Assembly: GCA_012840965.1 (NCBI GenBank)
Contig: DUVQ01000009.1
Location: 10,694-74,693, forward strand
DNA: 64,000 nucleotides
Reading direction: 5' to 3'
Source of the DNA: Oligoflexales bacterium
GTDB lineage: Bacteria > Myxococcota_A > UBA9042 > DTJE01
In this document: positions 9,811 to 39,094 of the stretch, in pieces
Layout of the letters: each line of letters opens with the position of its first letter
Numbering within the stretch: position 1 is the stretch's first letter
Position numbers and translations under genes: made by a program
The notes under the pieces: model-generated
Told to the model about the DNA's origin: nothing
What the model saw: only the letters and a program-made list of their open reading frames with translations
Databases searched by the model: none

Positions 9811-11852
9811 ATGAAACAACAAAAATGGGCTTTATGGGTCGTTGTAAGCCTGACACCCCCGATAACGGACAAGAACCTCCAGAGCCATGTGAAACTGCCG
9901 CCATGACCGACAAGATAGAGGCAGCTACCACGGCGATGCAGGAGGCCAAGGCTGCCTATCAGGCCAAGCGTGAATCCGGTGAGCAAGAGGCAACAAGCGC
10001 TGCGATTGCCTATCTGAAAACCAAAGAAGCCGTATCTGATATAAACACCGACGGGTCGGCGATTTTTTTCACCTGGGCATCCAGCATTAGGTGCGGTATT
10101 TACACTGCCCCTATGTCCTCTTTCGTCGGAAGTTACGCCCCACAGCCCCCACCACCAGCTCCATCGCCGATAAATGCGCCCGTTGGCTCTGGGAAGGCCG
10201 CTGTTTACTCAACGCTGCCCCCCGAGGAAGGCTCGCAAAACACTCACCAGGAAATAAGACGATTGCTAACAAATGCCGGCTTTGATGTTGCTCCCGCATT
10301 TGAAGGCCCTGCAGTTACCTTGGAAGCTATCCGCCGGATATCCAAGTTAGACGTGGTTTACATTCGAGTCGATGGTGCCACCGACGATGAAGTCTTCGCC
10401 TTTTTGACCGGTCAGTCTCCAACTGGCGACCTCTGTCCAATGGCCGGCGAATTCAGTAGTCGCGCCATTGGACTTGGTACAACGGTAGACGACGATGGCA
10501 CATACTTCACGATCTACCCGAATTTTTTCAAAGGCTTTGAATTTAAAGACGACAGTCTGCTTTATTTTTCGGCCTCTGACGGGCTCAGGAATGACAGTCT
10601 AGCATCCGTCATGCATGAAAAGGGACTAGGCGTGTTCATCGGCTGGAACAACAGCATATCGACTGGAACAGAGGACGAAAGGACAAACGTCACCCTTTTC
10701 GAGCGACTTTTACAGGGTGCATCACTTGGCGCCGCGATGACAGAGCTAAAGCAGGAGGACGAATCATTCGGCCAATGCTCAATAGTAATCGACGATGAGG
10801 AAGTCCTTGCTGAGCTTGACTACTACCCTAAACTGGAGGGCGCATCAATCCGGATCGTTACTGGATGCGATGAAGATTCGGAGTGTTTGCAAGAGCCTGA
10901 CGAACAAGTCTGTCACAGTCACCAGTGCACCAAAAAAAGTTGCGTTTTGGAGTGTCAGCAACAAGGATGCGGCGTCAGTTCTCAGTGTCCTGAGTTGTCA
11001 TGTGGTACTTGTGCTGATAATACAATCTGCGATAGCAACCTCAAGTGTATGCCGAAAGAGGTTAACGACTGTGTAGGTGGCTGGTGCTACATTCCTGCAG
11101 GCTCGTTTAAGATGGGAACTTTCGGCTCAGGGGTCAACGCTGATGAACAGCCGAAACATTCGGTCACGATTACACGCGCTTTCTATATACAGGAGACCGA
11201 GTTAACCCAAGGTCAGTGGAAGTTGCTTAATGACACGAATCCGTCTCACTTCAACACATGTGGTGATGACTGTCCCGTTGAGATGGTTAATTGGTTTGAT
11301 GCTGCAAACTATGCAAATCAGCTTTCCGAAAATGAGGGGTTCCAAAAGTGTTACCAGTTTAGCAATTGTGGAACTCCCTTGGGAACGAACCAGGACTGTG
11401 TAGTCACTTTTGCAGGTCTTGATTGCAGAGGTTATCGTTTGCCTACTGAGGCTGAATGGGAATATGCGGCTCGGGCGGGTACTACGTCATATTACTATGG
11501 CGATCTTGATGAAATTGCTTGGTATTACAGCACCAGTCACAATAGAACAGAAAGAGTGGGCCAGAAAACACCTAATGCGTGGGGATTATATGATGTTTCT
11601 GGCAATGTGTGTGAGTGGGTTAATGACTTCTACAGTGCCACTTATTATGAGGATCATTGCAAATCAGGTTGTAAGGATCCTCTGGGTCCCTCGAATGGCT
11701 GGCAGCGGGTTCATCGCGGCGGCGGGTTTGACTTTGACCCAGATGAGGTGCGTTCAGCTAGCCGTGACAAACGCGCACCTAATAGTGGCTTCATGGCCCT
11801 AGGCTTCCGCCTAGTAAGGACGGTAACCGAGCCCGAATTCCCACCCTTGTAG
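9811..11852 (+). CDS. Protein with C-terminal SUMF1/FGE-sulfatase (CLec-fold) domain; 5' end apparently frameshifted
   Basis: IPAGSFKMG, ETELTQ, CPVEMVNW, YRLPTEAEWEYAARAG, PNAWGLYDVSGNVCEW, RVHRGG, LGFRLVR. The RBS-backed ATG at 9811 is out of frame with the long ORF 9825-11852. Confidence 0.85.
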
Positions 11853-12129: not shown

Positions 12130-13248
12130 ATGAAACTCATGTTTTCATTCCTGGCTGTTTTGATCGCCTGCGGCTGTGCCTCAAGAGACTCTGCCTCAAT
12201 ATCACCCACGAAGGGGGTTTCCGTTGATGAAATGGACACGGCTCAGTTCGATGGAACCGGCTGTGTGCTGTCCAGACAGATCGATGCAGTCACGGCGGAA
12301 ATGATCTGCATGGAATTCGACGACATCTGGCAGATGGGCGCAAAAATTGTCACGGTGCGAATCGGGCAGGAGGGACTGGATTTCGTTAAGAAAGATTTGT
12401 CCAGTATTGCTGAAAGCGACGAGTACGGCACGGCGTTCAAAAAATCAGTCAAGGACGCTGCTGATGGTGAATCTTACGTAAAGCCTATCGAAGTTGTTCT
12501 GTCTGGGTCGACGGCTACGCTACCGGGCACTGATTTCACGCTGAAGGTAGAGTCTTCGAATGAAGCGTTCGGTCTCGCGATTTCAAAGGACAATTTTGTC
12601 GTGAGCTCTTTCAGTCAGCCTCGGCCAGAGTTTCACGATATTTCGCTGGTTGGTGCATGGTTTCTTGCTGATATGAAGGGGGTGCTCGCGCAGATCGTCG
12701 ACCACCTCAACGCACCGGGCCGCAGCCCGAGTGTGGAGGGATTCAGATACGTCTATCTGTCCTTCAAGGACGCGCCGACCGGCCCTATTGAGCCGAAACC
12801 TTTGAAACTGACTTACCGCAATACTAAAAGTAGACAGGCGTTCGATGTCATCTGGCCGTACATCAATGGGCGCTTGGAAATTGAGGACCTCCATATGGAA
12901 GGCGATTGGTCGAGCGATGCCCAGCCAGACCCCGGGTCTCTTATTGTCGAAGGTGACAACCTCCTGGCCTTCTTCGGCGCGGAGGTCATGTCGACGCTCC
13001 CCATGTACTGGAAGGATCGACAGCGTGCAAACTTCGCATGCTTCTGGGAACCGGAATCCGTATATTGGACTGCAGAGAAGAAACTGGTCACCGTGAAGGG
13101 AATGTCTCTGGAAGCGATAGCATACCGACTGGTTCATTTGGAAGGTGATGGGTTTGACAGCAAAGAATACTGGGTATCACCAGAAGTCGGCCTGGTTCGT
13201 GGTCCGAACATTGTTCTGGAGAAGGTCGTAGAAATGAATGCTAGGTGA
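12130..13248 (+). CDS. Hypothetical lipoprotein
   Basis: Signal MKLMFSFLAVLIACGC with GGAG upstream; no recognised domain. Confidence 0.7.
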   Translation: MKLMFSFLAVLIACGCASRDSASISPTKGVSVDEMDTAQFDGTGCVLSRQIDAVTAEMICMEFDDIWQMGAKIVTVRIGQEGLDFVKKDLSSIAESDEYGTAFKKSVKDAADGESYVKPIEVVLSGSTATLPGTDFTLKVESSNEAFGLAISKDNFVVSSFSQPRPEFHDISLVGAWFLADMKGVLAQIVDHLNAPGRSPSVEGFRYVYLSFKDAPTGPIEPKPLKLTYRNTKSRQAFDVIWPYINGRLEIEDLHMEGDWSSDAQPDPGSLIVEGDNLLAFFGAEVMSTLPMYWKDRQRANFACFWEPESVYWTAEKKLVTVKGMSLEAIAYRLVHLEGDGFDSKEYWVSPEVGLVRGPNIVLEKVVEMNAR

Positions 13249-13323
13249 CCCGAGCGGTTCAGAAGGAGAGATGGCGCTTTCGCGGGTCCTTCTCGCATGC
13301 GCCTATGCCCTAGTTACCCGGCA

Positions 13324-16300
13324 TCAGTCGTTTCCGGTTCCGAACCAGCCCGTCGGAGGCGTCTCCATCATGAGCAATTCAACGCGGCGGTTGCGGGCAT
13401 GGGCACGCGGCGAGTCGCCCGCTTGTACTGGCTGTCGCTTGCCAAACGAAAGCACGAACATCCGTTCGGCCGGGACTCCCATGTCGTCACTAAAAATCTG
13501 CGCCACGGATTCTGCACGGCGTGCGGCCAGCGCATCATTGAGTTCATCGGAGCCCCGCTTGTCGGCGTGACCCTCGACACGCAGGAAGGCCTTTGGATAC
13601 TGCTGCATTGCCAAAGCAATCTCGCGAAGGAACGGCATCATGGCAGGCGATGGATTGTGGTCGTTGGTCTCAAAGTAGACGGAACTGCTCGGAAGTTCTC
13701 GGGTCAGCACGCGCATCAATCGGTGGATCCGGCCCCCCGACGCCAGGATGAGCTGCCCATCAACAACGGCTAGGCCACTGGAGGCGTTCTGCTCGTAGCC
13801 AAGTCCCACAGGAAAGAACTCGAATCCCCCATTCTCGCTGCACTGAACCTCACGGTGCGAAACGGCGCAGACCACCTCGGGGGATGTCCCCAACCGAACA
13901 AGGCGCCGCGCCCCGCTGCCGGGCGCCAAAACACGTGTCCAGTTCCCCGAATCGCCGATGCTGCGATACAATGAGCCATCCGCGCCAGCCAGCAGCCAAA
14001 TTTGCTGGTGGACCGGAAGCATCATCTGGCTCGCAACGCCCTTCAGGCAGGGTTCGGCCAGCCCACGCACCGCTCGCTCAACCCAGTTCTCGCCGCCATC
14101 GGTGGTGCAGATCATTCGGTCATGGCTGCTCAACACGCAAAATGCCCGGGGGTTGGTTTCCTGGCCTCGCCAGAACACGACCGGTATGGCACCAGCCGGA
14201 GGGGATACGGACAGTGCCGGCACGACCATTCGCCGAATCCGTTCGGGTGCCGCGTCAAGGCGCCATTGCTCAAGAACAAGGGCCCCTGCGGCGTCCCTAC
14301 CCAGAACCAGAAATGCACTACGCGCCAACCAGGCCACGTGCAGCAGCTCCGACAGATCTGTGGTCACCTGACTCGGCCGGCCCTCCGCATCCAACAGCCA
14401 CAGTCGGTGGTCGGATCCCACGATCAGGGACCGGTTACCTAATGGTCGCACCTCCCTAAATGGCGTTGCAATCTCGACAGCAAGTGGCAACCATTTTGCG
14501 CCACACGCATCCGAACGCAGTAGTCCATCGGATGCGGCAACCACTAGGCTCGGACACTCCGGGCGCCCACCAAGCCCCCACATGTCCAGGAAATCGACAT
14601 CAGGAGACGCACCGAACTCGTTCCACCGGTGGATCGGGCGTACGGCGACTTGTACCTCCCCGGCGTTTCGGGGAGGACGAACCCGAACCACGTACTGGCG
14701 AGACAGTCGTTCGGCAATCTCCTGTAAGGCATCAACGTAGGGCTGCGGACTCGTCGTATCGTCGGGAACGTGGATGACCTGTCCCTGCAGCTCCGAAGCG
14801 AGTTGCCTAAAGGCGGAGTCACCCGGGTTCGCGTCGGGCGTGACCAGTAGGAATGGCCGAATCTGGCGGGTCTCCAGTTCCCGGATCAGTTTCACGGTCT
14901 CAGGGTCGTTCGCTCGGATTACCGGCTCTCCACATGTATGAAGCATCGTGCGAAGCGCATTGTCCCAATAGCCATCTTGAACGCACCTGGGAAGGCCGAA
15001 CTTCTGAGCACACTTGGACAGGAGCGACGGGGCATCCCCCCCCAGTTTCCGAATACAACCGGCTTCGCAGTTGGCAGCCTCGCCGGAAGCCAATGCCCGA
15101 CAGTTCCTACGACACTGGAGAATCTCTTTCCCCTTGTTGCACGGACTATTCGAATGAGTCCGCAACCTGTCATGGCCTCCAGTGTTGATCTGCAACGGTT
15201 CGTCGGTCATCAGGACGACAACACGTTCGCCCTTCGCCCCCTGAAGCATTGTTCCCGCCTCCAAGAGCGCCGCCACACCGTCCTCACCGTCCCCGCCGCC
15301 AGTGGCGGATGACAGTTGCTGCATCCATCGGATGAACTGATCAGACTTGCTGGAGGGGCGATGCACATCCATCACCTGCTCGGTAAAGGTCAGCAACCCC
15401 AGGCGGGCACTGCGCCCCCGGTAGTTCAGGGTACTCGCGAAGTGGGCAACGGCCATGCGCACGGCCTCCCGTTCGGTGCTCATGCTGCCTGACATGTCGA
15501 TCGCGAAAACAATGTCGAGGGGGCGTTCCTCCTCGAATCCCCAGAACTGGAGGATCTCGACCTTACGGCTGCCAAAGAAGACACGAAACGCATCGCGGGT
15601 CAGGCCAGAAACGCGGGCTCCAGATGCATCGCGCACCTCGATATAGAGATCAAGATCCCCGTTGGCCTGGCGGATCGTTCGAGTAATCGCCGCCCGCATC
15701 CCGAACGCATCCTTTCGCTGGAGTTCGACGAAGGCCAGAAACCGTTCCTCCGCCTCGCGGGATTCGCGGGCCTCTGGGAACCAGCGGACAAAGCGCAACC
15801 ACTTCGCGGGCTGGTCCGCCAACTCGGCCTCCTGCCAGTAGAACGTCACCGCACGCTTCTGGAACCGTTCGGCCTCCCGATCATCCGGGAAAAGGCGCGC
15901 ATATAGCAGACTCATCGGACCGGACTTGTGGCGGCTGGCGGCTTTGGCCAGTTTCGCACGAAAGCGCTCAGCCTGCTCGGAGATTCGTGGAACCGATTCC
16001 ATTACTTGAAGCAGGGTATCCGTCTGTTCATCATCCAAAGGCTGGCCGGCCTCCAGTGCCTGTCTCAGCGCACGCAGGTGGTAGTCGGCAATCGCTCGCT
16101 CGAAGCGCTCCGGCCACTGCCCCCGGGTGTACCGTTCCAGACCGGCGATCAGCTGATTGAGTTCATGCGACGCGTGCGCATCCTGGAATGCACGACGCGC
16201 CTCCCGATCGTAGAGCTCGGGTTCGAAAGGTACCATCTCGGGCCATTCGCCGTAAGCCTCCATGAGTTCCTGGTAGGCAGCGACGGTATCCGTACGAATG

Positions 16301-17028
16301 GCTAGATCCCGGGCCACGCTCAATTCATTCACCCGCACTCCGGAAAGCATCTCGGCAGCCTCGGGCCAACTCTCATAGGTCAGGCGAAACTCGCGCCACC
16401 CAGCCAACGAGGAAGCAGACTGGGCCTCTGCCAATGCCTTCAGGACTTCATGCTGCCGGGCTTGCGCAACCGACGCGGCGGCCTCCGGTCGTGCCCCGTA
16501 TGTACGAAGAAAGGCGCGAACTGCATCGAGGCTGTCCTGGTCCAGCGCCCGACGCAACGCGATCTCGGCCTCACGTCGGCCGGCAATCTCCGCCTCGGGA
16601 ACACCCGGGTAGCGAGACTGAAACTCCTGGTAGCCCTCCAGGGTATCCAGGGGTTGGGTTTGGTCCCGGAAGAACGCGGTGGCTTCGAAACCGCGTGACC
16701 GATGAACCAGGTCCGCCACTATGGGCTCCCGGGCGTAACGCCTCGCGAATTCCCGGTAGGCCTCGACCGTGTCAGCACGTCGAGCCAATCCCAGCCGCGC
16801 CTCGCCCACCAGAACAAAGACTTCATCGCGCTCGGGCGGGTGCTTGCCCCGCGCCTGCTGCTTGTCCAACCAGGACTGCCCTTTGCTCACAACGCGGTCC
16901 AAGGAGCCGTTATCCAGGAGTTTGCGAAGGGATACCGGCAGACCGGCACATCCGGTTCCCAGGAGGCACAGCCCCAGGGCAACAACAACGATTCGGGAGA
17001 ATTGCTTGGAACTACTCATACACCTCAC
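13324..17028 (-). CDS. Lipoprotein with helical repeats, vWA domain, propeller-like region and OmpA C-terminal domain
   Basis: Lipobox LGTGC; MIDAS DMSGS; VLMTD; SxDGG-like motifs (TTDGG, SENGG); VYFET...EGHADKRGS...N..L...RA...NRRVE. Visibly GC-richer than its flanks. Alternative start ATG 17019. Confidence 0.85.
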   Translation of the reverse strand: MRCMSSSKQFSRIVVVALGLCLLGTGCAGLPVSLRKLLDNGSLDRVVSKGQSWLDKQQARGKHPPERDEVFVLVGEARLGLARRADTVEAYREFARRYAREPIVADLVHRSRGFEATAFFRDQTQPLDTLEGYQEFQSRYPGVPEAEIAGRREAEIALRRALDQDSLDAVRAFLRTYGARPEAAASVAQARQHEVLKALAEAQSASSLAGWREFRLTYESWPEAAEMLSGVRVNELSVARDLAIRTDTVAAYQELMEAYGEWPEMVPFEPELYDREARRAFQDAHASHELNQLIAGLERYTRGQWPERFERAIADYHLRALRQALEAGQPLDDEQTDTLLQVMESVPRISEQAERFRAKLAKAASRHKSGPMSLLYARLFPDDREAERFQKRAVTFYWQEAELADQPAKWLRFVRWFPEARESREAEERFLAFVELQRKDAFGMRAAITRTIRQANGDLDLYIEVRDASGARVSGLTRDAFRVFFGSRKVEILQFWGFEEERPLDIVFAIDMSGSMSTEREAVRMAVAHFASTLNYRGRSARLGLLTFTEQVMDVHRPSSKSDQFIRWMQQLSSATGGGDGEDGVAALLEAGTMLQGAKGERVVVLMTDEPLQINTGGHDRLRTHSNSPCNKGKEILQCRRNCRALASGEAANCEAGCIRKLGGDAPSLLSKCAQKFGLPRCVQDGYWDNALRTMLHTCGEPVIRANDPETVKLIRELETRQIRPFLLVTPDANPGDSAFRQLASELQGQVIHVPDDTTSPQPYVDALQEIAERLSRQYVVRVRPPRNAGEVQVAVRPIHRWNEFGASPDVDFLDMWGLGGRPECPSLVVAASDGLLRSDACGAKWLPLAVEIATPFREVRPLGNRSLIVGSDHRLWLLDAEGRPSQVTTDLSELLHVAWLARSAFLVLGRDAAGALVLEQWRLDAAPERIRRMVVPALSVSPPAGAIPVVFWRGQETNPRAFCVLSSHDRMICTTDGGENWVERAVRGLAEPCLKGVASQMMLPVHQQIWLLAGADGSLYRSIGDSGNWTRVLAPGSGARRLVRLGTSPEVVCAVSHREVQCSENGGFEFFPVGLGYEQNASSGLAVVDGQLILASGGRIHRLMRVLTRELPSSSVYFETNDHNPSPAMMPFLREIALAMQQYPKAFLRVEGHADKRGSDELNDALAARRAESVAQIFSDDMGVPAERMFVLSFGKRQPVQAGDSPRAHARNRRVELLMMETPPTGWFGTGND

Positions 17029-29412: not shown

Positions 29413-30489
29413 TTAGGCATCTGGAGTGATGCATACCTTAGTTTCGGGGTCGCACTTCGCACCTGCCCCTTCACAATCAGCAGCTTCCGCTAAACTGCCA
29501 TCAGTGCAGATCCGAATTTGGTCGCCGACACACACGTTTTCGGTGCAGTCTGTGCAATCTATTGCGTCACCCTCTACAGAGCCGCAGACCTTTCCATCTG
29601 CACACTCAGTTGGAAGTGCCAAGACGCCATCGTTTCCACACAATTGAATCTTGGTCACATCATCATCAACACAGGCATTATCCTCACATTCTGGAACACA
29701 AACCTTCTCTAAGGGATCACACACAAAAGCAACCCCCGGATATTCCTCCTCATTGGTTTCACAAACGACAGCTTCTGCCAAAACGCCAGTGTCTGTGTCA
29801 CAAATGCGAATCTTAGTTACATCTTCAGCATCGCACACGTTTTCAGTGCAATCCTCAACAACTTCCTTACAGGCGGTGCCTTCCTCGTTGCACTCCTTGG
29901 GATCGCAGTCAGTCACGGCCGGGGCCTCGCCCTCTACGCAGGTGGTTAAAACGCCATCTTCGCAAGAAGTCTTGGTCTCGGTGCATGTCTCCACTACTTC
30001 TTTGCACCCAGTGCCTTCCTCGTTGCACTCCTTGGGATCGCAGTCGGATACGACTGGGTCCTTATCCTTCTCACACACCGTCAAAACGCCATCTTCGCAA
30101 GAAGTCTTGGTCTCGACGCATTTGTCGGTAGCAACTACTTTGCAGCCTGTGCCTTCAGCATTGCACTCCTTGGGGTCGCAGTCAGTCACAGCCGGGTCCT
30201 TACCTTCCTCGCACACGGTTAAAACGCCATCTGTGCAAGAAGTCTTAGTCTCGGTGCACTTTTCTGTGACAACTTCCTTACAGGCAGTTCCAGCTTCGTT
30301 GCACTCACCTGACGCACAGTCAGTCCTAACAGGGTCCTTGTCTTGTTCACATGTCACCAACACGCCATCTATACATGTGGTGGAATTGATGAGACATTTG
30401 CCGTCGGCTGGGTCGACGGGGTCATCACCACAGGCAAATGTGCCTAGTGATATGCCAAACACGACGATAAAAAGTAGTAAACGTTTCAT
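29413..30489 (-). CDS. Cys-rich repeat lipoprotein
   Basis: GGAGG RBS; TFAC lipobox; about four 44-46 aa units of CxETKTSCxDGVLTxCE..DCDPKECNxEGTxCK with close DNA identity. Confidence 0.8.
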   Translation of the reverse strand: MKRLLLFIVVFGISLGTFACGDDPVDPADGKCLINSTTCIDGVLVTCEQDKDPVRTDCASGECNEAGTACKEVVTEKCTETKTSCTDGVLTVCEEGKDPAVTDCDPKECNAEGTGCKVVATDKCVETKTSCEDGVLTVCEKDKDPVVSDCDPKECNEEGTGCKEVVETCTETKTSCEDGVLTTCVEGEAPAVTDCDPKECNEEGTACKEVVEDCTENVCDAEDVTKIRICDTDTGVLAEAVVCETNEEEYPGVAFVCDPLEKVCVPECEDNACVDDDVTKIQLCGNDGVLALPTECADGKVCGSVEGDAIDCTDCTENVCVGDQIRICTDGSLAEAADCEGAGAKCDPETKVCITPDA

Positions 30490-30636
30490 GATCAAAACCT
30501 CCAATAACAAGTTAAAAACGATTGACCATCGCAGAAAGTCTATGAATCGGAAAAGCGCTTTGCAAATCCACGACAAAAAAAGTCGCATTTCTCCAGAATA
30601 ACAGTCGTCGGAAGCGAGGTTCGGTATGAAAATTAT

Positions 30637-32200: not shown

Positions 32201-34536
32201 CTATCGGCATACACCAGCAGGACTACACGTTCCATTATTACACGGCCCATTGTTTAGATTAAAACCCCAATTCCCAAAATCAAGATCCCTGCAATAACAG
32301 TTTAAATTCAAGGTAGAACCAGAATATGTCCCAACACAGACCTTGGAACCGTCAGTCGGGATATCGCACTCTCCGCACTCTTCAAAACACGCTGGATATG
32401 GATAGTCAGGCCGAATCTCCCAACCCTTGATAGTCCCCCCAGTACAAGTCAAGTTGCCGCTAGTACACCCACCTGAATTACACGGCGCGGAGGCCTCGCA
32501 CGCTGGATATTCCAGATGATTATTCGGGCAACGGCACATGCAGCCAGTAGAACGTGCCTTGCCATCGCAGGCAGTACCGTCTTTATCACGGCAGGATTTG
32601 GTGGGCGCGTAGTATTCGCATGCCGCCTGACTGCATACACATTGTGAATCCTTGCAGTTGTAACCCCGGGGGCACTGATTCCCACAGCCACTGCAATGAT
32701 TCCGGTCACTTGAGATATTTACACAAACCCCACCGCAGTTGATCAAACCGCTGGGACACTGGCAATTACCGTTGACGCAAGTCTCTAAATGACTACAAAC
32801 CCTGCCACACTGGCCGCAGTTTTGCGTATCTGAAGAAAGATCAATGCACGTACGGGCGCAACAGCTCTTACCGGGATCGCACTTGAACCCGCAACTACCA
32901 CAGTTATTGTTGTTTTTCGTAATATCCGTACAGTTGCCTGAACAACAATCAGAACCTGAGACACACGAATTGCGACAGCTGCCGCAATTCATGCGATCCG
33001 TTAGCAAATTGACACAATTACCTTTGCAACAAGTTTGACCTGAAGAACAAAATGTGCCGCAACTACCGCAGTTATTGTTACTGGTCATCACATCAGCGCA
33101 CGTGCCACTGCAGCATAACTCGTCTGGGCCGCAGGCATTACCACAAGTGCCGCAATTATCTACGTCTGATGATTTCAGCACGCACTCACCACTGCAGCAG
33201 CTATAGCCAGTAGGGCATTTTCTGCCGCAAGTGCCGCAGTTGTTGACATCATTTTCAGTATCTTCACACCCACTAAGACAGCAAGTTTGACCAGCACCAC
33301 ACCCCGAGCCGCTCCCGCACTTACACACGCCATTGTCGCAAATCTCGCCAGGACGGCATTTTTTCTCACAAGCGCCACAGTTATTGACATCAACCCCGTT
33401 AACCCTGACACACCGAAGGTTGCAACACGATTCACCCGAAAGGCAATTTCTTCCACAACTACCGCAACTGTCTTGTGTATTCAAAGGCGTCTCACAACCA
33501 TTGCCATGGGAGCCATCGCAATCACCCCACCCCTGGTTGCATCCCAGAAGTTTACAATCGCCAGTAGCACAGGTCGCCGTTGCATTGTCAAACTGACACA
33601 AAACCCCACAACCGCCGCAATTCTCGACGGAATGTAAATCCACCTCACAGCCGTTATCTGGATTGCCATCACAATCATCCCAACCCCAATTGCACTGGGA
33701 AAGCTCGCATTCACCCGAATCGCAAGTCGCCGTTGCATTGTCAATCCAACACGCTTTTGAACAACCGCCACAATTCGTTAACGTGTTTAAAGGCGTCTCA
33801 CAGCCATTGATGACCACGCCGTCACAATCACCCCAATTAGCATCGCAACTAAGCTCGCATTTCCCCTGATTGCAGACTGGCGTCGCATTAGCCTGTTTTG
33901 GACAAACAATCCCACAGGAACCGCAGTTTTCGACCAAACTCAAATCAGCTTCGCAACCAGTCGCAAAATCCGTGTCGCAATCGCCCCACCCTTCGGCACA
34001 TTGCGAAATCTTACATTCCCCACGATCACAAATAGGCGTCCCGTGCTCTACCTCGCACTCAACGCATTCAGGCCCACAACGCTCAGCTTCCTCTGAAACG
34101 CAACCACCTAGCCCAACCCACTCATCTTCGCGACCACACGGAGCTTCACCCGGACGACAATCGCATTGCCCATCAACACAGGTCCCATCACCACAATTCG
34201 TCCAACACTGTCCGCAATGCCTTGTGGACGTGGTCAAATCCACACATTTGGTCCCACAAACGACCTTCCCATCCTCATCGCAAACTTGCCCCTCACAGTC
34301 CTCACCCTCACAATCCATTGGCATGGCGTCATCATGATTATCGTCACTGACTTCGTTGTCCTCGCCAGGCCTATCCTTCCCAGAATCCACCCCCCAGCCC
34401 TATCATCAGTCGGGGCCTGCAAAGAATCGCCACCATCCCCCATAGAATCTAGCTGCCCTTTGACAGAACTTGAACCACAAGCCAAGAAAAAGCCCGCCAT
34501 CACAGCCAACACAAAAATACCACGAAATTTATGCAC
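32201..34536 (-). pseudogene. Cys-rich (NCGxCG repeat) myxobacterial-type surface lipoprotein frameshifted at a G6 run
   Basis: The signal/lipobox frame (GTG 34536, FFLAC) is separated from the 729-aa repeat ORF by a one-base shift at C6 34390-34395. Could be a sequencing error. Confidence 0.75.
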
Positions 34537-34684
34537 CCAAACCTCCAAAGGGCCAGTCCTAGTCAAGGATTCTAGCATTTAAGGCAACCATATCCCACCT
34601 CAAACACCCCCTTCACCCCAAGTTCCCGGAATTGGCGCCTAGTCGATGTGTGAGAATGGTGGCTTTGGGATGGCAATCTAGTCG

Positions 34685-34712
34685 TTGACGTTGATGAACT
34701 GGAGTGTATATT
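34685..34712 (+). promoter_or_regulatory. Putative promoter of the SIR2-TPR gene
   Basis: TTGACG, 16 bp ending in TG, TATATT. Confidence 0.4.
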
Positions 34713-34761
34713 TGTCATTGGTACTAGATGGCTGGATTGGCACTGCGGTGAGGAAAATAGA

Positions 34762-36789
34762 ATGGAGATTCCTTTAGGACTACAAAAGGCGATAAAGGAC
34801 AACAGGTTAGTAGTATTTGTTGGTGCAGGACTATCATATGAGCTCAAAAACTCACAAGGCAAAAAATTAGGAGGTTGGGTCAACCTAGTCGCACATATTA
34901 TAGAAGAACTAGAGAGAAAAGGACATGATGTCGCTTACTTACAACCAGTACTTAGTAAGCATGACCCAACAGCCGCACTCGCTCTCATTGAGTCTCGAAT
35001 TGAACCTCCAAATAACGAGTTATCAAAGGACGAAATCTATCGAATTGTCAGGTCTTTTTACGAACTAAGTGACGAAAACGAGTATTCTCTGCATAAAAAG
35101 GTACTTAAGCTAACTAACAGAGTCATCACTACGAACTATGACACAGCGTTTGAAGAGGTCGAACCTCGATTTAGAGGATACAAGGCATACAAAGGAAAAG
35201 ACCATGAGTTAAGAGAACTCGTGGAAAATGATAATAACGGATTCTTGATCAAGTTACATGGTTGTTCTGAAAACACCGGTTCCATGATTTTGTTTCCATC
35301 TGACTACAAAAAGCTTTACGAAAGCAAAGAAAGAGATGCTCTGCATTTATTAACGGTCTTGAGGACCATCATACTGCACAAAACAATTCTCTTTTTAGGC
35401 TTTAAACTAGATGAACCCCAGATAAATGGCATCTTCAAAGAGATAGAGTACATACAAGGTACAAAAGACCAAAGGCATTTTGTTGTTGCAAGGAAGGAGT
35501 CAACGGGCAATCCACCAGACTGTGTTGGATCGATTGTTAACATCTCTATTGAGGACTTCATTAATGAGCTTATTAGAATTAAAGAAACTCAAACAAGTAC
35601 GGATCCAGAAAAAAGAAGGCTAGAGGAGCAACTTAAAGCAGCTTCAAAAAAAATTGCCGAATTAGAAAAACAGCCTTCTTACCAAGAAGAACTCGCTGAA
35701 AAGACAAGACTTTTAGAAAGAGAGGCCTATAAATATTACATAAAAGGAGTGGAGTACAGTTTATCAAATGAATTCTCATTGGCCGCAGAACAGTATGAAA
35801 TGGCAACTGAATTAAAACCAGACTTTCACGAAGCCTTCAATAATTGGGGATATGCTTTACGAGAGCTAGCAGAAACCAAGCAAGGAAAAGAGAGAGATGA
35901 CTTGTATAAACAAGCCTTACAAAAGTACGAAAAAGCAATTGACATAGAATCCGATGCTTATGAAGCCTTTTATAACTTGGGAAATGCTTTACAAGAGCTA
36001 GCGAAAACCAAAGAAGGAAAAGAGGCCGATGAGCTGTACAAACAAGCCTTCGAAAAGTACAAAAATGCAATTGACATAAAACCAGACTATCATGGAGCCT
36101 TCAATAACTGGGGAAATGCTTTACAAGAGCTAGCAGAAACCAAAGAAGGAAAAGAAAGAGATGACTTGTATAAACAAGCCTTACAAAAGTACGAAAAAGC
36201 AACTGAATTAAAACCAAACGATCATGGAGTCTTGAACAACTGGGCAATTGCTTTACAAGCGCTAGCGAGTACCAAAGAAGGAAAAGAAGCCGATAGACTC
36301 TACAAACAAGCCTTGCAAAAGTACGAAAAAGCAACTGAGATAAAGCCAGACGATCATGGAGTCTTTTATAACTGGGGATATGCTTTACAAGCGCTAGCAG
36401 AAACCAAAGAAGGAAAAGAAGCCGATAGACTCTACAAACAAGCCTTGCAAAAGTACGAAAAAGCAACTGAGATAAAGCCAGACGATCATGAAGTCTTGAA
36501 CAATTGGGGAATTGCTTTACAAGCACTAGCAGAAACCAAAGAAGGAAAAGAGGCAGATGAACTGTACAAACAAGCCTTACAAAAGTTCGAAAAAGCAAGT
36601 GAATTAAAACCAGACGATCATGAAGTCTTGGACAACTGGGAAAATGTTTTACGAGCCCTAGCAAAAACCAAAGAAGGAAAAGAGGCCGATAGACTGTTCA
36701 TACAAGCCTTGGAAGCATATGAACGAGCCTTGGAGAGGTACAAAAAGGCAACTGGGGCAGTTTGGATATCCGTTTTTGATCATGATTGA
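34762..36789 (+). CDS. SIR2-like (SIR2_2) domain protein with coiled coil and tandem TPR-like repeats
   Basis: VFVGAGLS, VITTNYD, LIKLHGC and LFLGF are SIR2_2 motifs; the C-terminal half is repeats; visibly AT-rich. Confidence 0.88.
   Translation: MEIPLGLQKAIKDNRLVVFVGAGLSYELKNSQGKKLGGWVNLVAHIIEELERKGHDVAYLQPVLSKHDPTAALALIESRIEPPNNELSKDEIYRIVRSFYELSDENEYSLHKKVLKLTNRVITTNYDTAFEEVEPRFRGYKAYKGKDHELRELVENDNNGFLIKLHGCSENTGSMILFPSDYKKLYESKERDALHLLTVLRTIILHKTILFLGFKLDEPQINGIFKEIEYIQGTKDQRHFVVARKESTGNPPDCVGSIVNISIEDFINELIRIKETQTSTDPEKRRLEEQLKAASKKIAELEKQPSYQEELAEKTRLLEREAYKYYIKGVEYSLSNEFSLAAEQYEMATELKPDFHEAFNNWGYALRELAETKQGKERDDLYKQALQKYEKAIDIESDAYEAFYNLGNALQELAKTKEGKEADELYKQAFEKYKNAIDIKPDYHGAFNNWGNALQELAETKEGKERDDLYKQALQKYEKATELKPNDHGVLNNWAIALQALASTKEGKEADRLYKQALQKYEKATEIKPDDHGVFYNWGYALQALAETKEGKEADRLYKQALQKYEKATEIKPDDHEVLNNWGIALQALAETKEGKEADELYKQALQKFEKASELKPDDHEVLDNWENVLRALAKTKEGKEADRLFIQALEAYERALERYKKATGAVWISVFDHD
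35815..36738 (+). repeat. Seven tandem 132-bp (44-aa) repeats
   Basis: Units start at 35815, 35947 and so on; shared core aaaccaaagaaggaaaaga...tacaaacaagcc...aaagtacgaaaaagcaa. Confidence 0.92.
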
Positions 36790-36983
36790 TGCCATCACAC
36801 CAGCTACTTTTGTGGGGCTGTAAGGTGCTGTCTGCCGTTGCCGCTCCCAATTGCTGAAACTCCTTACTAGCCTTACCCTCTGATTAGACAGGAAATTAAA
36901 AATAATTCTTTGACAAGATAGCCAATAATAATTATCAAAATAGTCAGGGTTTGTTTTTTAACACTTTTTCCAAGGAGGAAATC

Positions 36984-37427
36984 ATGGCTGTTATGAATGC
37001 GGTGGGTAAAGCGGTTTTGGATATGGGACCTGGTATGAAGGTTACCTGTGAGTCTCGGAAGATGCAGTTTGTGCTGGACGAGCCGCCGGAGCTTGGTGGC
37101 ACCAATTTGGGGATGAATCCGGTGGAGGCTTTGCTCAATTCTCTGGCTGCTTGTAAGTGCATTGTGGCAAAATGCTTTGCTAAGGCAAATGGGGTCGAGC
37201 TGGAGGGGCTTACCGTTTCTTGTAAGGGGGTGCTGGATCCTGATGGATTTATGGGCATCAATCCTGATGTCAAGATTGGTTTTTCCGAAATTACAACGAC
37301 TTACAACTTTAAAACGTCGTCACCAAAAGACAAGGTTGACGCCCTTGTCAAGTACATTGAATCACACTGCCCAGTGCACGACACACTTGTCAATCCTGCA
37401 AAGTTCAAATGCGTTGTGAAAGTCTAA
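36984..37427 (+). CDS. OsmC/Ohr family protein
   Basis: DEPPELGGTNLGMNPVEALLNSLAAC...HCPVHDTL; AAGGAGG RBS. Confidence 0.92.
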   Translation: MAVMNAVGKAVLDMGPGMKVTCESRKMQFVLDEPPELGGTNLGMNPVEALLNSLAACKCIVAKCFAKANGVELEGLTVSCKGVLDPDGFMGINPDVKIGFSEITTTYNFKTSSPKDKVDALVKYIESHCPVHDTLVNPAKFKCVVKV

Positions 37428-38698: not shown

Positions 38699-39094
38699 TT
38701 AATCAGCAACTGTATTTACTGTAATCTCAGGCGGGTTCACCAAGGCCCGTTTCACGGCACATAGCTCCGCGGATTTCTCAAGAGCCCTGTGATATTTTTC
38801 AGGAAAGTCGGCTGGCACATGTACCTTCAGGTCGATTTTGGCCATACGTCTTTCAGCGTGGTCATAACGCATTTCCTGGGTCAGGTAGACGCCTTCAGTT
38901 GGCAGGCCATGGTTTTTACAAAAGCTCAAAACGTAGATACCAGCACACGTCCCGATGGAGGCCATAAACAGGGTGAATGGCTCAGGGGCCGAGCCTTCGC
39001 CACCTGAAGCAACACCTTGGTCAGTAGCAATCACTTGCTCACCCAATTGAGCGTTTACTCGCAAGCCACCTGGGAAAGTAATCTTCATTTGCAT
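38699..39094 (-). CDS. OsmC family protein
   Basis: TDQ..GGEGSAPEPFTLFMASIGTC...ELCAVK. Confidence 0.9.
   Translation of the reverse strand: MQMKITFPGGLRVNAQLGEQVIATDQGVASGGEGSAPEPFTLFMASIGTCAGIYVLSFCKNHGLPTEGVYLTQEMRYDHAERRMAKIDLKVHVPADFPEKYHRALEKSAELCAVKRALVNPPEITVNTVAD

What the first reader, a model, noticed from the sequence alone, without database searches (positions are those of the whole stretch)
34762..36789. Stand-alone SIR2 domain fused to a position-variable 44-aa TPR-like array: candidate immune receptor
Seen: an AT-rich gene with SIR2_2 motifs, a coiled coil and seven 132-bp repeats. The scaffold (TKEGKE..LYKQA..KYEKA) is nearly invariant, while the first helix varies at fixed positions: FHEAFNNWGY, AYEAFYNLGN, YHGAFNNWGN, DHGVLNNWAI, DHGVFYNWGY, DHEVLNNWGI, DHEVLDNWEN. 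Units look like mosaics of each other (ERDD in units 1 and 3, EADR in 4, 5 and 7, EADE in 2 and 6). Known: SIR2 domains are NAD+-depleting effectors in Thoeris ThsA, DSR1/2, SIR2-HerA and Avs systems; TPRs are phage sensors in Avs; high-identity repeat arrays are reshuffled in fungal NLRs. Inference: a single-gene sensor-effector with no NTPase, whose specificity could change by repeat recombination.
Basis: partly seen in the sequence, partly recalled or inferred. Interest (0 to 1): 0.75.

Follow-up and report, generated by a model that had tools for sequence, protein, structure and literature searches.

The report
Stand-alone SIR2 enzyme with TPR array
A foreign-looking gene in an uncultured myxobacterium joins an NAD-cleaving-type SIR2 enzyme to seven near-identical 44-residue TPR repeats, and it probably works as a one-protein sensor and suicide enzyme against phages, though nobody has tested this.

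Summary
ORF 34762-36789 (+) encodes 675 aa: a SIR2_2 domain with intact GAGLS, TTNYD and KLHG motifs, a helical linker, and seven 132-bp/44-aa TPR units. Its G+C is 0.37-0.40 against about 0.50 around it. There is no NTPase, no conserved neighbour, and no TIR gene in the genome.

It belongs to an uncharacterised family, mostly Bacteroidota, with 1-12 units per protein. The host is a Myxococcota MAG, and 0 of 40 related genomes have the gene, so it was probably acquired.

Across the family, the six most variable unit positions within a protein are six of the seven canonical concave-face TPR positions. Units resemble each other more within a protein than between proteins. Synonymous sites between units are unsaturated. 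Proteins with identical heads carry different unit numbers. This fits intragenic recombination, but assembly collapse is not excluded.

- No defence genes lie near 7 loci.
- The array is identical in 4 metagenomes.
- Within-array dN/dS in this gene is below 1.
- This copy lacks the C-terminal cap found in 113 of 121 relatives.

The closest known system is DSR2 (SIR2 plus helical-repeat sensor). I rate it a new variant of a known kind. Earlier notes of this scan describe SIR2-TPR fusions on other DNA.

The parts
34685..34712 (+). promoter-like site (TTGACG, 16 nt spacer, TATATT; 10 of 12 matches), about 50 nt upstream of the start codon
   Evidence: The number of such sites in the region (4) equals the chance expectation (4.5), so this is weak.
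34750..34754 (+). GAGGA, a Shine-Dalgarno-like motif 7 nt before the ATG
   Evidence: read directly from the sequence
34762..36789 (+). CDS of the 675-aa SIR2-TPR protein, stop codon included
   Evidence: The start agrees with homologues, whose alignments begin at residues 1-3.
34762..35586 (+). SIR2_2 (immune-type sirtuin) domain, aa 1-275
   Evidence: Pfam PF13289, E 1.4e-22. The AF2 model shows a Rossmann-like alternation of strands and helices. Sequence matches to ThsA 8wc0 (7.8e-10), KomC 8zsf and DSR2 8wkt.
34822..34836 (+). GAGLS glycine-rich NAD-binding loop, aa 21-25
   Evidence: G21, G23 and S25 are invariant in 81 aligned family members
35128..35142 (+). TTNYD motif, aa 123-127, with the catalytic-type Asn125
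   Evidence: T124, N125, Y126 and D127 are invariant in 81 sequences. The motif aligns with TTNYD of ThsA and KomC.
35251..35262 (+). KLHG motif, aa 164-167, with the catalytic-type His166
   Evidence: H166 and G167 are invariant. The motif aligns with K[MLF]HG of ThsA and KomC. The PDB entry titles show that the His of this motif type is the one mutated in DSR2 H171A and KomC H146N.
   Evidence: AF2 secondary structure. Pairing was not shown.
35689..35820 (+). degenerate TPR-like hairpin ('unit 0'), aa 310-353
   Evidence: helices 310-334 and 338-351. The unit HMM matches only its last 13 residues.
35821..36744 (+). seven tandem 132-bp / 44-aa TPR units, aa 354-661. Each unit is helix A (unit positions 3-17), a loop (18-21), helix B (22-42) and a loop.
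   Evidence: Pfam TPR_11, TOM20_plant and TPR-S all score above their cut-offs.
36271..36358 (+). first copy of an 88-nt stretch repeated exactly at 36403-36490 (end of unit 4 into unit 5, and end of unit 5 into unit 6). This is the junction of the one-unit deletion seen in the 631-aa form P0002.
36403..36490 (+). second copy of the 88-nt identical stretch
   Evidence: the same 88-nt contig lies at either place and has about twice the depth of its neighbours
36745..36786 (+). 14-aa C-terminal tail, standing in place of the family's conserved cap of about 60 aa
   Evidence: tblastn found no remnant of the cap downstream in any frame.

Best explanation
This is a horizontally acquired single gene for a one-polypeptide sensor-effector of the 'defence-associated sirtuin' kind. 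The proposed mechanism has three steps. First, the TPR superhelix binds a macromolecular cue in its concave groove, most likely a phage protein. Second, binding changes the conformation or oligomeric state of the protein. Third, this switches on the N-terminal SIR2_2 domain, which hydrolyses NAD+ and stops the infected cell (abortive infection). Shown here: the architecture; intact and invariant NAD-site residues; absence of an NTPase and of a conserved partner gene; a foreign origin; variability between repeats concentrated on canonical concave-face positions; and concerted evolution of the array. Inferred from DSR2, ThsA and Avs5: NADase activity, activation by a phage protein, oligomerisation and a defence role. 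Specificity probably changes over evolutionary time by duplication, deletion and conversion of units. Rapid reshuffling within populations is not shown.
For: Architecture: SIR2_2 plus TPR_11, TOM20_plant and TPR-S, with no other domain. The AF2 model has pLDDT 88.1, with a SIR2 fold at 1-275 followed only by helical hairpins. Foldseek gives whole-length matches to DSR2 (8z18, 8wyb and others, E about 1e-9) and EfAvs5 (9jap), ranked below pure TPR superhelices.

Enzyme: G21, G23, S25, T124, N125, Y126, D127, H166 and G167 are invariant in 81 family members and align with ThsA, KomC and DSR2. The PADLOC ThsA, LmuA and PDC-S25 models match the SIR2 part only.

Stand-alone: 6 homologous loci have unrelated neighbours. 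No TIR_2, ThsB_TIR or TIR match was found in the gene's own genome, which is 95.7% complete. None of the 120 longer proteins listed carries SIR2_2.

Foreign and accessory: low G+C. 0 of 40 relatives have a match to the head, and 5 match the TPR part only. In a same-genus genome the downstream synteny (TPR394, OsmC2, PP2C, TldD) is kept without this gene. The host is Myxococcota, while the family is mostly Bacteroidota.

Sensor-like array: within-protein entropy in 84 proteins (682 units) is highest at unit positions 2, 11, 15, 14, 7 and 4. These correspond to TPR positions 34, 9, 13, 12, 5 and 2, six of the seven concave-face hypervariable positions named in PMC1261162.

Array turnover: 291 of 654 units have their nearest unit in the same protein, against 0.9% expected. 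Synonymous differences between units are unsaturated (pS 0.30-0.37 at scaffold positions) in 4 of 5 arrays. The same 44-aa array also sits on a divergent SIR2_2 head (16 of the 21 proteins that lack this head type) and on a ParA-like NTPase head (P0090). Such head swapping is typical of conflict systems.
Against: No defence genes lie nearby. Of 85 neighbouring proteins from the window and 6 homologous loci, PADLOC matched only housekeeping look-alikes (MutY, RecG, topoisomerase, PP2C, HEAT) and gave one weak hit to a MADS component, E 1.1e-7, in L021.

No full-length member was found on plasmids (0 of 16 matching records cover at least 80%) or in viral contigs (1 distant SIR2-only match).

This copy lacks the C-terminal cap found in 113 of 121 relatives, so it may be impaired.

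Contigs of 4 runs from 4 studies show no differing letter over 2.6 kb, so there is no sign of fast diversification.

Within-array dN/dS at concave positions is 0.62 in this gene, and 1.02 pooled over 5 arrays (range 0.37-2.05, only 7 codons).

No RNA run holds the gene. No activity has been measured for any family member that I could find.
Confidence: 0.5

Rival explanations
1. A signal-activated effector rather than a direct sensor. In this reading the TPR array (Pfam TPR-S, 'sensor') binds a small nucleotide-derived second messenger, such as a cADPR isomer, made by a TIR or other generator encoded elsewhere. The SIR2 head is then the executioner, as in Thoeris ThsA. In this genome it would be an orphan effector.
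For: PF20308 TPR-S scores 42.2 bits against a cut-off of 27.6. A bioRxiv preprint (10.64898/2025.12.03.692087, passages read) reports that the type VIII Thoeris effector ThsI carries a TPR domain. The authors presume it perceives cADPR, and say Aravind and colleagues had predicted a role for that TPR domain in TIR signalling. The closest SIR2 sequences in the PDB are ThsA proteins.
Against: No TIR_2, ThsB_TIR or TIR match was found in the gene's own genome, which is 95.7% complete. No TIR or other generator gene lies next to the 6 full-length homologues. A pocket for one conserved small molecule does not explain 1-12 units with unit-to-unit variation along the whole groove. I did not test whether ThsI's TPR belongs to PF20308.
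Confidence: 0.12
2. A non-immune regulatory enzyme. The TPR array recruits a cellular client protein or peptide, and the SIR2 head deacylates or ADP-ribosylates it, or consumes NAD as a metabolic or stress switch.
For: The gene sits among housekeeping genes in all 7 loci examined. TPR arrays are general protein-binding scaffolds. Earlier notes of this scan on Asgard SIR2-TPR proteins read one of them as a built-in ligand-gated switch (unchecked).
Against: The head is of the SIR2_2 type. According to PMC12700824 (passages read) this type lacks the zinc module needed for deacetylation by canonical sirtuins, and it groups with ThsA, DSR1 and DSR2. The distribution is sporadic (0 of 40 relatives), the composition is foreign, heads are swapped on the same array, and arrays turn over quickly. 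None of this is typical of a housekeeping regulator.
Confidence: 0.2
3. This particular copy is a decaying or inactive remnant of a transferred gene, whatever the family does. Loss of the conserved C-terminal cap and the divergent last unit would have disabled it.
For: The cap is absent here but present in 113 of 121 relatives. Unit 7 is the most divergent, 50-61% aa identity to the other units. There is no evidence of expression; 0 RNA runs hold the gene.
Against: The 2,028-nt frame is fully open, with an SD-like motif. All catalytic residues are intact. Identical sequence persists in 20 runs from 17 studies dated 2016-2025. Six other family members also lack the cap. The AF2 model is confident through unit 7.
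Confidence: 0.13

Closest known systems
DSR2 (defence-associated sirtuin 2, Bacillus subtilis; PDB 8z18, 8wyb, 8wkt and others)
   Same: A single polypeptide with an N-terminal SIR2_2-type NADase head carrying the catalytic His, followed by a C-terminal alpha-solenoid repeat domain that acts as sensor. It has no NTPase and is a one-gene system. Foldseek aligns the whole model to DSR2 chains (E 1e-9 to 4e-8), and the SIR2 parts match by sequence (2.4e-4).
   Different: DSR2 is about 1,000 aa, with a MID helical bundle and irregular HEAT-like repeats. It forms a tetramer and is activated by a phage tail tube protein (PMC11850899, abstract and passages read). The protein here has 675 aa, no MID domain, and a regular array of seven 44-aa TPR units. 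No PADLOC DSR model matched at E up to 1. TM-scores are only about 0.3. Oligomeric state and trigger are unknown.
ThsA of type I Thoeris (PDB 8wc0, 6lhx, 7uxt, 8bto)
   Same: It has the closest SIR2 sequences among solved structures (7.8e-10 to 3.8e-5) and shares the TTNYD and K[LM]HG motifs. The PADLOC ThsA1 model matches aa 8-248.
   Different: ThsA carries a C-terminal SLOG domain that binds 3'cADPR, and it needs a TIR partner, ThsB. Here there is no SLOG domain and no TIR gene in the genome.
Avs5 / SIR2-STAND (EfAvs5, PDB 9jap)
   Same: An N-terminal SIR2 effector with a C-terminal repeat sensor. It gives a whole-length Foldseek match (2.1e-9).
   Different: Avs5 has a central STAND NTPase that drives oligomerisation. 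None is present here.
Plant Tom20 TPR-like repeats (PF06552; PDB 1zu2) and Pfam TPR-S (PF20308)
   Same: The repeat type is the same: a TPR hairpin lengthened to about 44 residues. PF06552 scores 75.9 bits and PF20308 42.2 bits, both above their cut-offs. 1zu2 matches aa 513-627.
   Different: This is a likeness of the repeat scaffold only. Plant Tom20 is a mitochondrial import receptor and has no enzyme head. That TPR-S is regarded as a sensor in conflict systems I take from its Pfam name and from recall.
Highly internally conserved repeat arrays of fungal NLRs
   Same: Near-identical tandem repeats with variation at ligand-facing positions, and repeat number that changes between close relatives.
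   Different: Those proteins have a NACHT or NB-ARC NTPase, and for them recombination and positive selection were shown with population data. Here neither was shown beyond doubt.

Membership tests
SIR2_2 (Pfam PF13289; immune-type sirtuins, 'SIRim') | Profile match above the gathering score | tested here: met
   80.8 bits against a cut-off of 24.5, aa 120-247
SIR2_2 (Pfam PF13289; immune-type sirtuins, 'SIRim') | Catalytic-type Asn and His and the glycine-rich NAD loop are present | tested here: met
   N125, H166 and G21/G23/S25 are invariant in 81 sequences and align with ThsA, KomC and DSR2
SIR2_2 (Pfam PF13289; immune-type sirtuins, 'SIRim') | NAD+ hydrolase activity | not testable with these tools
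   needs an enzyme assay
DSR2 | Match to DSR2 sequence models | tested here: not met
   no DSR model is among the 9 PADLOC families at E up to 1. Only the SIR2 part matches DSR2 chains, at 2.4e-4.
DSR2 | SIR2 head, MID domain and HEAT-like C-terminal solenoid, about 1,000 aa | tested here: not met
   675 aa, no MID domain, and a regular TPR array in place of HEAT-like repeats. The overall head-plus-solenoid plan is shared.
DSR2 | Tetramer activated by a phage tail tube protein, conferring phage defence | not testable with these tools
   the homodimer prediction gave no verdict; no experiment was done
Thoeris type I (ThsA with ThsB) | SLOG sensor domain fused to SIR2 | tested here: not met
   no SLOG match. 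The PADLOC ThsA1 model matched at profile positions 14-228 of 478 only.
Thoeris type I (ThsA with ThsB) | A cognate TIR-domain gene | tested here: not met
   0 matches for PF13676, PF08937 and PF01582 in the gene's own genome, 95.7% complete. None lies next to the 6 homologues.
Avs5 / SIR2-STAND | Central STAND (NACHT or NB-ARC type) NTPase | tested here: not met
   no NTPase family in Pfam. After aa 275 the model holds only helical hairpins.
TPR-S (Pfam PF20308) | Profile match above the gathering score | tested here: met
   42.2 bits against 27.6, 2 stretches, aa 514-622. However, TPR_11 (107.9 bits) and TOM20_plant (75.9 bits) score higher on the same residues.
Undescribed SIR2_2 + 44-aa TPR family (mostly Bacteroidota) | Homologous head plus an array of 44-aa units in strict register | tested here: met
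   100 of 121 proteins share the head at E < 1e-10. Units are in exact 44-residue register. Atlas clusters carry SIR2_2, TPR_11 and TOM20_plant together.
Undescribed SIR2_2 + 44-aa TPR family (mostly Bacteroidota) | Conserved C-terminal cap of about 60 aa (SYNLAC..D.DW..D.DF) | tested here: not met
   present in 113 of 121 proteins; absent from this protein, from P0002 and from 6 others

The most novel reading that the evidence does not exclude
The family is a bacterial counterpart of the repeat-shuffling immune receptors of fungi. It would be a one-gene NADase defence whose sensor is a cassette array of near-identical 44-aa TPR units. Unequal crossing-over and gene conversion between units would add, delete and recombine units within strains of one species. 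Alleles with identical heads but 5, 6, 7 or 8 units are seen in the data. Specificity-determining residues on the concave face would then be re-sorted much faster than point mutation allows, with no NTPase involved.
Probability: 0.25. Interest if true: 0.75.

Novelty: new variant of a known kind. Interest (0 to 1): 0.5.

Why it matters
One-protein sirtuin defences are known from DSR1 and DSR2 only, and there the sensor is an irregular solenoid. A family with a short, perfectly periodic TPR sensor would be a simpler model. The ligand-contact positions can be read from the sequence, and unit number varies from 1 to 12, so one could study how a repeat sensor gates a SIR2 NADase and how specificity evolves.

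The family is common in Bacteroidota, and members are named from Prevotella intermedia, Dokdonia and Flexibacter, so it may matter for phage-host relations in gut, oral and marine communities. If the unit-number alleles are real, they would be evidence for recombination-driven receptor diversification in bacteria. If they are assembly artefacts, that is a useful warning for anyone mining repeat-bearing defence genes in metagenomes.

Tried and rejected
2. Homodimer prediction of aa 1-352 (2 copies): no verdict, median score 0.41 against a mark of 0.42. This is no evidence either way.
3. The other 675-aa ORF, at 9825-11852, is unrelated.
4. Remnant of the C-terminal cap downstream or in other frames: none.
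5. Insertion scars: no flanking direct repeats, and only weak inverted repeats. No mobile-element family (integrase, transposase) appeared in the Pfam matches of the 15 neighbouring ORFs scanned. I ran no tRNA scan.
6. Longer fused forms (1,183-3,375 aa): 289 hits. The best 120 listed are generic TPR proteins, and none lists PF13289. By the tool's own caveat this is weak evidence.
7. Plasmids: 16 records match, and none covers 80% or more of the protein. Viral contigs: 1 distant SIR2-only locus.
8. Laying contigs of 4 runs to see repeat-number variants: Logan contigs break inside the array into the same 7 pieces in every run. No joints, no other letters. The one-unit deletion has no diagnostic 31-mer, so this could neither show nor exclude it. 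Depth of the unit-5-specific piece relative to the flanks (about 0.8-1.1) is too rough to use.
9. Positive selection: Nei-Gojobori ratios never clearly exceed 1 for this gene.
10. Literature: the string 'SIR2-TPR' gave 0 papers. Searches for SIR2 with TPR, anti-phage, TPR-S, SIRim or Bacteroidota turned up no study of this architecture. Supplementary tables of the SIRim preprint and of the Thoeris preprint (bioRxiv; closed) could list it and were not seen.
11. Synteny in a same-family genome (G005) was too eroded to use.
Full report
WHAT IS THERE

The ORF 34762..36789 (+) encodes 675 residues. A GAGGA motif lies 7 nt before the ATG, and one promoter-like site lies at 34685-34712, although such sites are no more frequent here than chance. 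Tandem Repeats Finder reports 7.0 copies of a 132-bp unit at 35792-36710 with 83% matches.

G+C falls to 0.373 and 0.402 in the two 1-kb bins that hold the gene, against 0.48-0.52 around it. Units share 66-92% nucleotide identity but only 50-86% amino-acid identity. 14 of 44 positions never vary.

DOMAINS AND MODEL

Pfam finds SIR2_2 (aa 120-247, 1.4e-22) and, on the array, TPR_11 (1.9e-31), TOM20_plant (4.5e-21) and TPR-S (1.3e-10), all above their cut-offs. It finds no NTPase or other domain. PADLOC models of ThsA, LmuA and PDC-S25 match only the SIR2 part, and no DSR model matches. NCBIfam gives only sub-threshold TPR look-alikes.

An AlphaFold2 model built on 81 aligned relatives has mean pLDDT 88.1 and pTM 0.63. 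It shows:
- a SIR2 fold at aa 1-275;
- long helices at 282-303 and 310-334;
- a degenerate hairpin at 310-353;
- seven hairpins, each with a 15-residue helix A, a 4-residue loop and a 21-residue helix B.

The unit is therefore a canonical 34-residue TPR lengthened by ten residues, as in plant Tom20 (1zu2 matches aa 513-627).

Foldseek ranks consensus-TPR and OGT superhelices first. Whole-length alignments to DSR2 chains (E 1e-9 to 4e-8) and to EfAvs5 (2.1e-9) follow, with TM-scores of about 0.3.

By sequence the head is nearest to ThsA (8wc0, 7.8e-10; 7uxt; 6lhx), KomC (8zsf), DSR2 (8wkt, 2.4e-4) and human FAM118B. G21, G23, S25, T124, N125, Y126, D127, H166 and G167 are invariant across the 81 sequences. 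They align with the TTNYD and K[LM]HG motifs of those enzymes. That the Asn and His of these motifs are catalytic in ThsA I recall from the literature. The PDB entry titles 'DSR2 H171A' and 'KomC(H146N)' agree with this.

FAMILY

A word-indexed search found 704 proteins at E <= 0.001 among 7,999 candidates scored. Of the best 120 plus the query, 100 of 121 share this head at E < 1e-10.

Named members come from Prevotella intermedia, Flexibacter flexilis, Dokdonia pacifica, Fulvivirgaceae, Crocinitomix and Bacteroidales MAGs. Genome loci come from Dokdonia, Roseivirga, Saprospiraceae, Crocinitomix, Melioribacteraceae and one contig binned as Synechococcus.

An exhaustive HMMER scan with the head alone (aa 1-352) against 1.84 billion cluster representatives gave 1,832 hits at 1e-3, 269 at 1e-10 and 61 at 1e-30. 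The ESM Atlas holds clusters of 240, 119, 69, 57 and 52 members that combine SIR2_2, TPR_11 and TOM20_plant, most commonly from Bacteroidota.

Protein lengths step by 44 residues. An HMM of the unit finds 1 to 12 units per protein (mode 5), in strict register.

The same array also occurs on other heads. Among the 21 proteins without this head type, 16 carry a divergent SIR2_2, one (P0090) carries a ParA-like AAA_31/CbiA NTPase, and four (P0077, P0110, P0114, P0120) have no head that Pfam recognised at E <= 1e-6; for P0120 the precomputed Pfam list names CbiA and VirC1.

113 of 121 proteins end in a conserved cap of about 60 residues. The window's protein does not, and no remnant lies downstream.

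CONTEXT AND ORIGIN

The neighbours in the window are ordinary genes: urea transporter, carbonic anhydrase, esterase, a Stig1-like cysteine-rich protein, OsmC, a TPR protein, OsmC, PP2C, TldD/PmbA, HEAT, MgtE.

The TldD neighbour has its named relatives in Myxococcota and 'Deltaproteobacteria' MAGs at 54-65% identity. The host is therefore an uncultured myxobacterium. Its assembly is 3.09 Mb in 218 contigs and 95.7% complete. The gene is single-copy there.

In 40 related genomes (2 of the same genus, 17 more of the same family) no match covers the head. Five match only the TPR part. In a same-genus genome the downstream genes (TPR394, OsmC2, PP2C, TldD) are syntenic, but the SIR2-TPR gene, the first OsmC and the Stig1-like gene are not found in the 10 kb upstream.

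I found no insertion scars. With the low G+C, the best reading is horizontal acquisition, plausibly from a Bacteroidota-like donor.

Contigs from four runs join the gene to both flanks, so it is not a binning or chimera artefact.

IS IT IN A DEFENCE ISLAND?

In this sample, no. Around six full-length homologues the neighbours are unrelated to each other and are housekeeping genes: TonB receptors, peptidases, CTP synthase, RecG, SSB, GldD, pseudouridine synthase, amidohydrolase, topoisomerase and others. A TerB-like gene sits next to the Dokdonia copy, and an EVE-domain gene lies 6 kb from the L016 copy.

PADLOC on 85 neighbouring proteins (window plus six loci) matched only helicase, glycosylase, topoisomerase, PP2C and HEAT look-alikes, plus one weak MADS-component hit.

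No full-length member was found on plasmids (0 of 16 matching records at 80% cover or more) or in IMG/VR (1 distant SIR2-only match). This is the main evidence against a defence role. However, 7 loci is a small sample.

THE REPEATS

Which positions vary. Aligned to consensus TPRs, unit position n corresponds to TPR position n-2, and unit positions 1 and 2 correspond to TPR 33 and 34. Across 84 relatives with five or more units (682 units), the mean within-protein entropy is highest at unit positions 2, 11, 15, 14, 7 and 4. These are TPR 34, 9, 13, 12, 5 and 2, six of the seven positions that Magliery and Regan found most variable and exposed on the concave, ligand-binding face (PMC1261162, passages read).

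The window's own profile correlates with the family's (Spearman 0.60, P = 2e-5). I could not measure surface exposure on the model itself because no coordinates are given. The 'concave groove' statement therefore rests on this homology.

They are also what any TPR ligand site shows. What is less ordinary is how uniform the scaffold is.

Concerted evolution. In 102 proteins, 291 of 654 units have their nearest unit in the same protein, against 0.9% expected if units were exchangeable. For this protein the figure is 6 of 7. Mean unit identity is 0.657 within proteins and 0.508 between them. At scaffold positions, synonymous differences between units of one array are unsaturated (pS 0.30-0.37) in 4 of the 5 arrays for which I had DNA, although the proteins themselves are only about 45-55% identical. 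Arrays are therefore renewed by duplication or conversion within each lineage.

Mosaicism in this array. 108 of 231 pairs of informative sites fail the four-gamete test. A PHI-like permutation gives P = 0.088 for all seven units and 0.013 without the divergent unit 7. Units 4 and 5 share an identical 78-nt stretch, and units 1 and 3 share 46 nt. This supports recombination between units only modestly.

Selection. Nei-Gojobori dN/dS between units of this gene is 0.43-0.49 overall, 0.73-0.81 for helix A and 0.30-0.35 for the rest.

| Array | Concave positions | Other positions |
|---|---|---|
| Window | 0.62 | 0.45 |
| L015 | 2.05 | 0.43 |
| L018 | 0.37 | 0.33 |
| L020 | 0.94 | 0.26 |
| L021 | 0.92 | 0.26 |
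| Pooled | 1.02 | 0.37 |

The concave set has only seven codons and the pairs are not independent. This shows relaxed or diversifying evolution of the groove, not proven positive selection.

Unit number among close relatives. The database holds a 631-aa protein (P0002; 9 member sequences, 7 contigs) that is identical to this one except for the exact loss of 44 residues (aa 504-547). The junction lies in an 88-nt stretch that occurs twice (36271-36358 and 36403-36490).

Among 120 heads compared, 23 pairs are at least 99% identical, and 19 of these differ in unit number. They form 7 groups, 6 of them with mixed counts. One group has identical heads and caps but 5, 5, 6, 7, 8 and 8 units, and its arrays are recombinants of one unit pool.

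There are two caveats:
- The database is clustered at 90% identity, so identical heads appear twice only if the arrays differ. The proportion is therefore inflated by construction.
- Short-read assemblers can skip or chimerise near-identical units. MAG contigs do end inside these arrays (L016, L017 and L026).

For this gene, Logan contigs of four runs from four studies break into the same seven pieces, with no differing letter and no joint. The unit-5-specific piece is present in all four, and the 88-nt piece has about double depth. This fits the 7-unit form everywhere. The 6-unit form has no diagnostic 31-mer, so it can be neither confirmed nor excluded.

The stretch is held at 98% of its words by 20 runs from 17 studies of digesters, wastewater, sludge and one soil, dated 2016-2025. 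None is an RNA run. So there is no sign of rapid diversification in this population.

MECHANISM

The best-supported reading (confidence 0.5) is a DSR2-like one-protein sensor-effector. The TPR groove binds a phage-derived macromolecule. Binding alters conformation or oligomeric state. The SIR2_2 head then depletes NAD+.

The architecture, the intact active site, the lack of a partner, the accessory and foreign status, the head swapping and the sensor-like variability are shown here. Activity, trigger, oligomerisation and defence are inferred from DSR2, ThsA and Avs5. DSR2 is a tetramer allosterically activated by a tail tube protein captured by its HEAT-like repeats (PMC11850899).

Rivals:
- A Thoeris-like effector whose TPR-S array senses a nucleotide signal (0.12). 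This draws on the report that ThsI carries a TPR presumed to perceive cADPR (bioRxiv 10.64898/2025.12.03.692087). Against it, no TIR gene is found in the genome or beside homologues.
- A non-immune regulatory enzyme (0.2).
- An impaired remnant, given the missing cap (0.13).

COMPARISON AND NOVELTY

The protein fails the membership tests for DSR2 (no model match, no MID domain, TPR instead of HEAT-like repeats), ThsA (no SLOG, no TIR partner) and Avs5 (no STAND NTPase). It works most like DSR2.

I found no paper on this architecture. 'SIR2-TPR' gave 0 papers. Other searches gave only tree labels or general remarks. Closed supplements could hold more.

Earlier notes of this scan already describe stand-alone SIR2-TPR genes on other DNA: one bacterial, read as DSR2-like, and several from Asgard archaea.

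I rate it a new variant of a known kind, with interest 0.5. The added value of this case is the strictly periodic 44-residue array, with family-wide evidence of concerted evolution and apparent unit-number alleles.

Noticed in passing
window 32201-34390 (-) and 29413-30588 (-): Two cysteine-rich repeat proteins. The first has 729 aa with four Stig1-like stretches (PF04885, 6.5e-34). The second has 391 aa with repeated 'C.E.K.SC.DGVLT.CE...DP..TDCDPKECN' units and no Pfam match. Stig1 is a plant stigma family, so its presence in a myxobacterium is odd.
   Followed up: partly
window 13001-17000: A high-G+C block (0.585-0.631 against about 0.50 elsewhere) that holds a 1,234-aa ORF on the minus strand (13324-17028). 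It may be another foreign segment.
   Followed up: no
G000:C8:7432-7938 (locus L084): A second SIR2_2 match in the same genome (35.2 bits, open frame 292 aa) near a contig end. It is unrelated in context to the gene studied.
   Followed up: no
window 34500-37100 in runs X1-X20: 98% of the stretch's words are held by 20 runs from 17 studies (digesters, wastewater, sludge, one soil; 2016-2025). Four of them show no differing letter over 2.6 kb, and three of those have nearly the same contig depth (about 38). The organism seems remarkably clonal and widespread, or the data sets are not independent.
   Followed up: partly
L016 (contig end at about 11,690), L017 (contig end) and L026 (contig start): MAG contigs end or begin inside the 44-aa TPR arrays. 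In the Roseivirga MAG the gene appears split between two contigs. These arrays break short-read assemblies.
   Followed up: partly
L053:9884-11029 (+): An Ignavibacteriae MAG encodes a 382-aa TIR_2 domain fused to canonical 34-aa TPRs (TIR_2 3.1e-20). This is a different effector-TPR fusion that the search picked up through its TPR part.
   Followed up: no
proteins P0090 (817 aa) and P0120 (982 aa): The same 44-aa TPR array with its cap sits behind a ParA-like head. In P0090 this is an AAA_31/CbiA NTPase by my own Pfam scan. In P0120 it is CbiA/VirC1 by the precomputed list only. Neither has a SIR2 head.
   Followed up: partly
window 36951-37427 (+) and 38699-39094 (-): Two OsmC-like genes flank a 394-aa TPR gene. 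Only the second OsmC is syntenic in the same-genus genome G001, so the first may have arrived together with the SIR2-TPR gene.
   Followed up: partly
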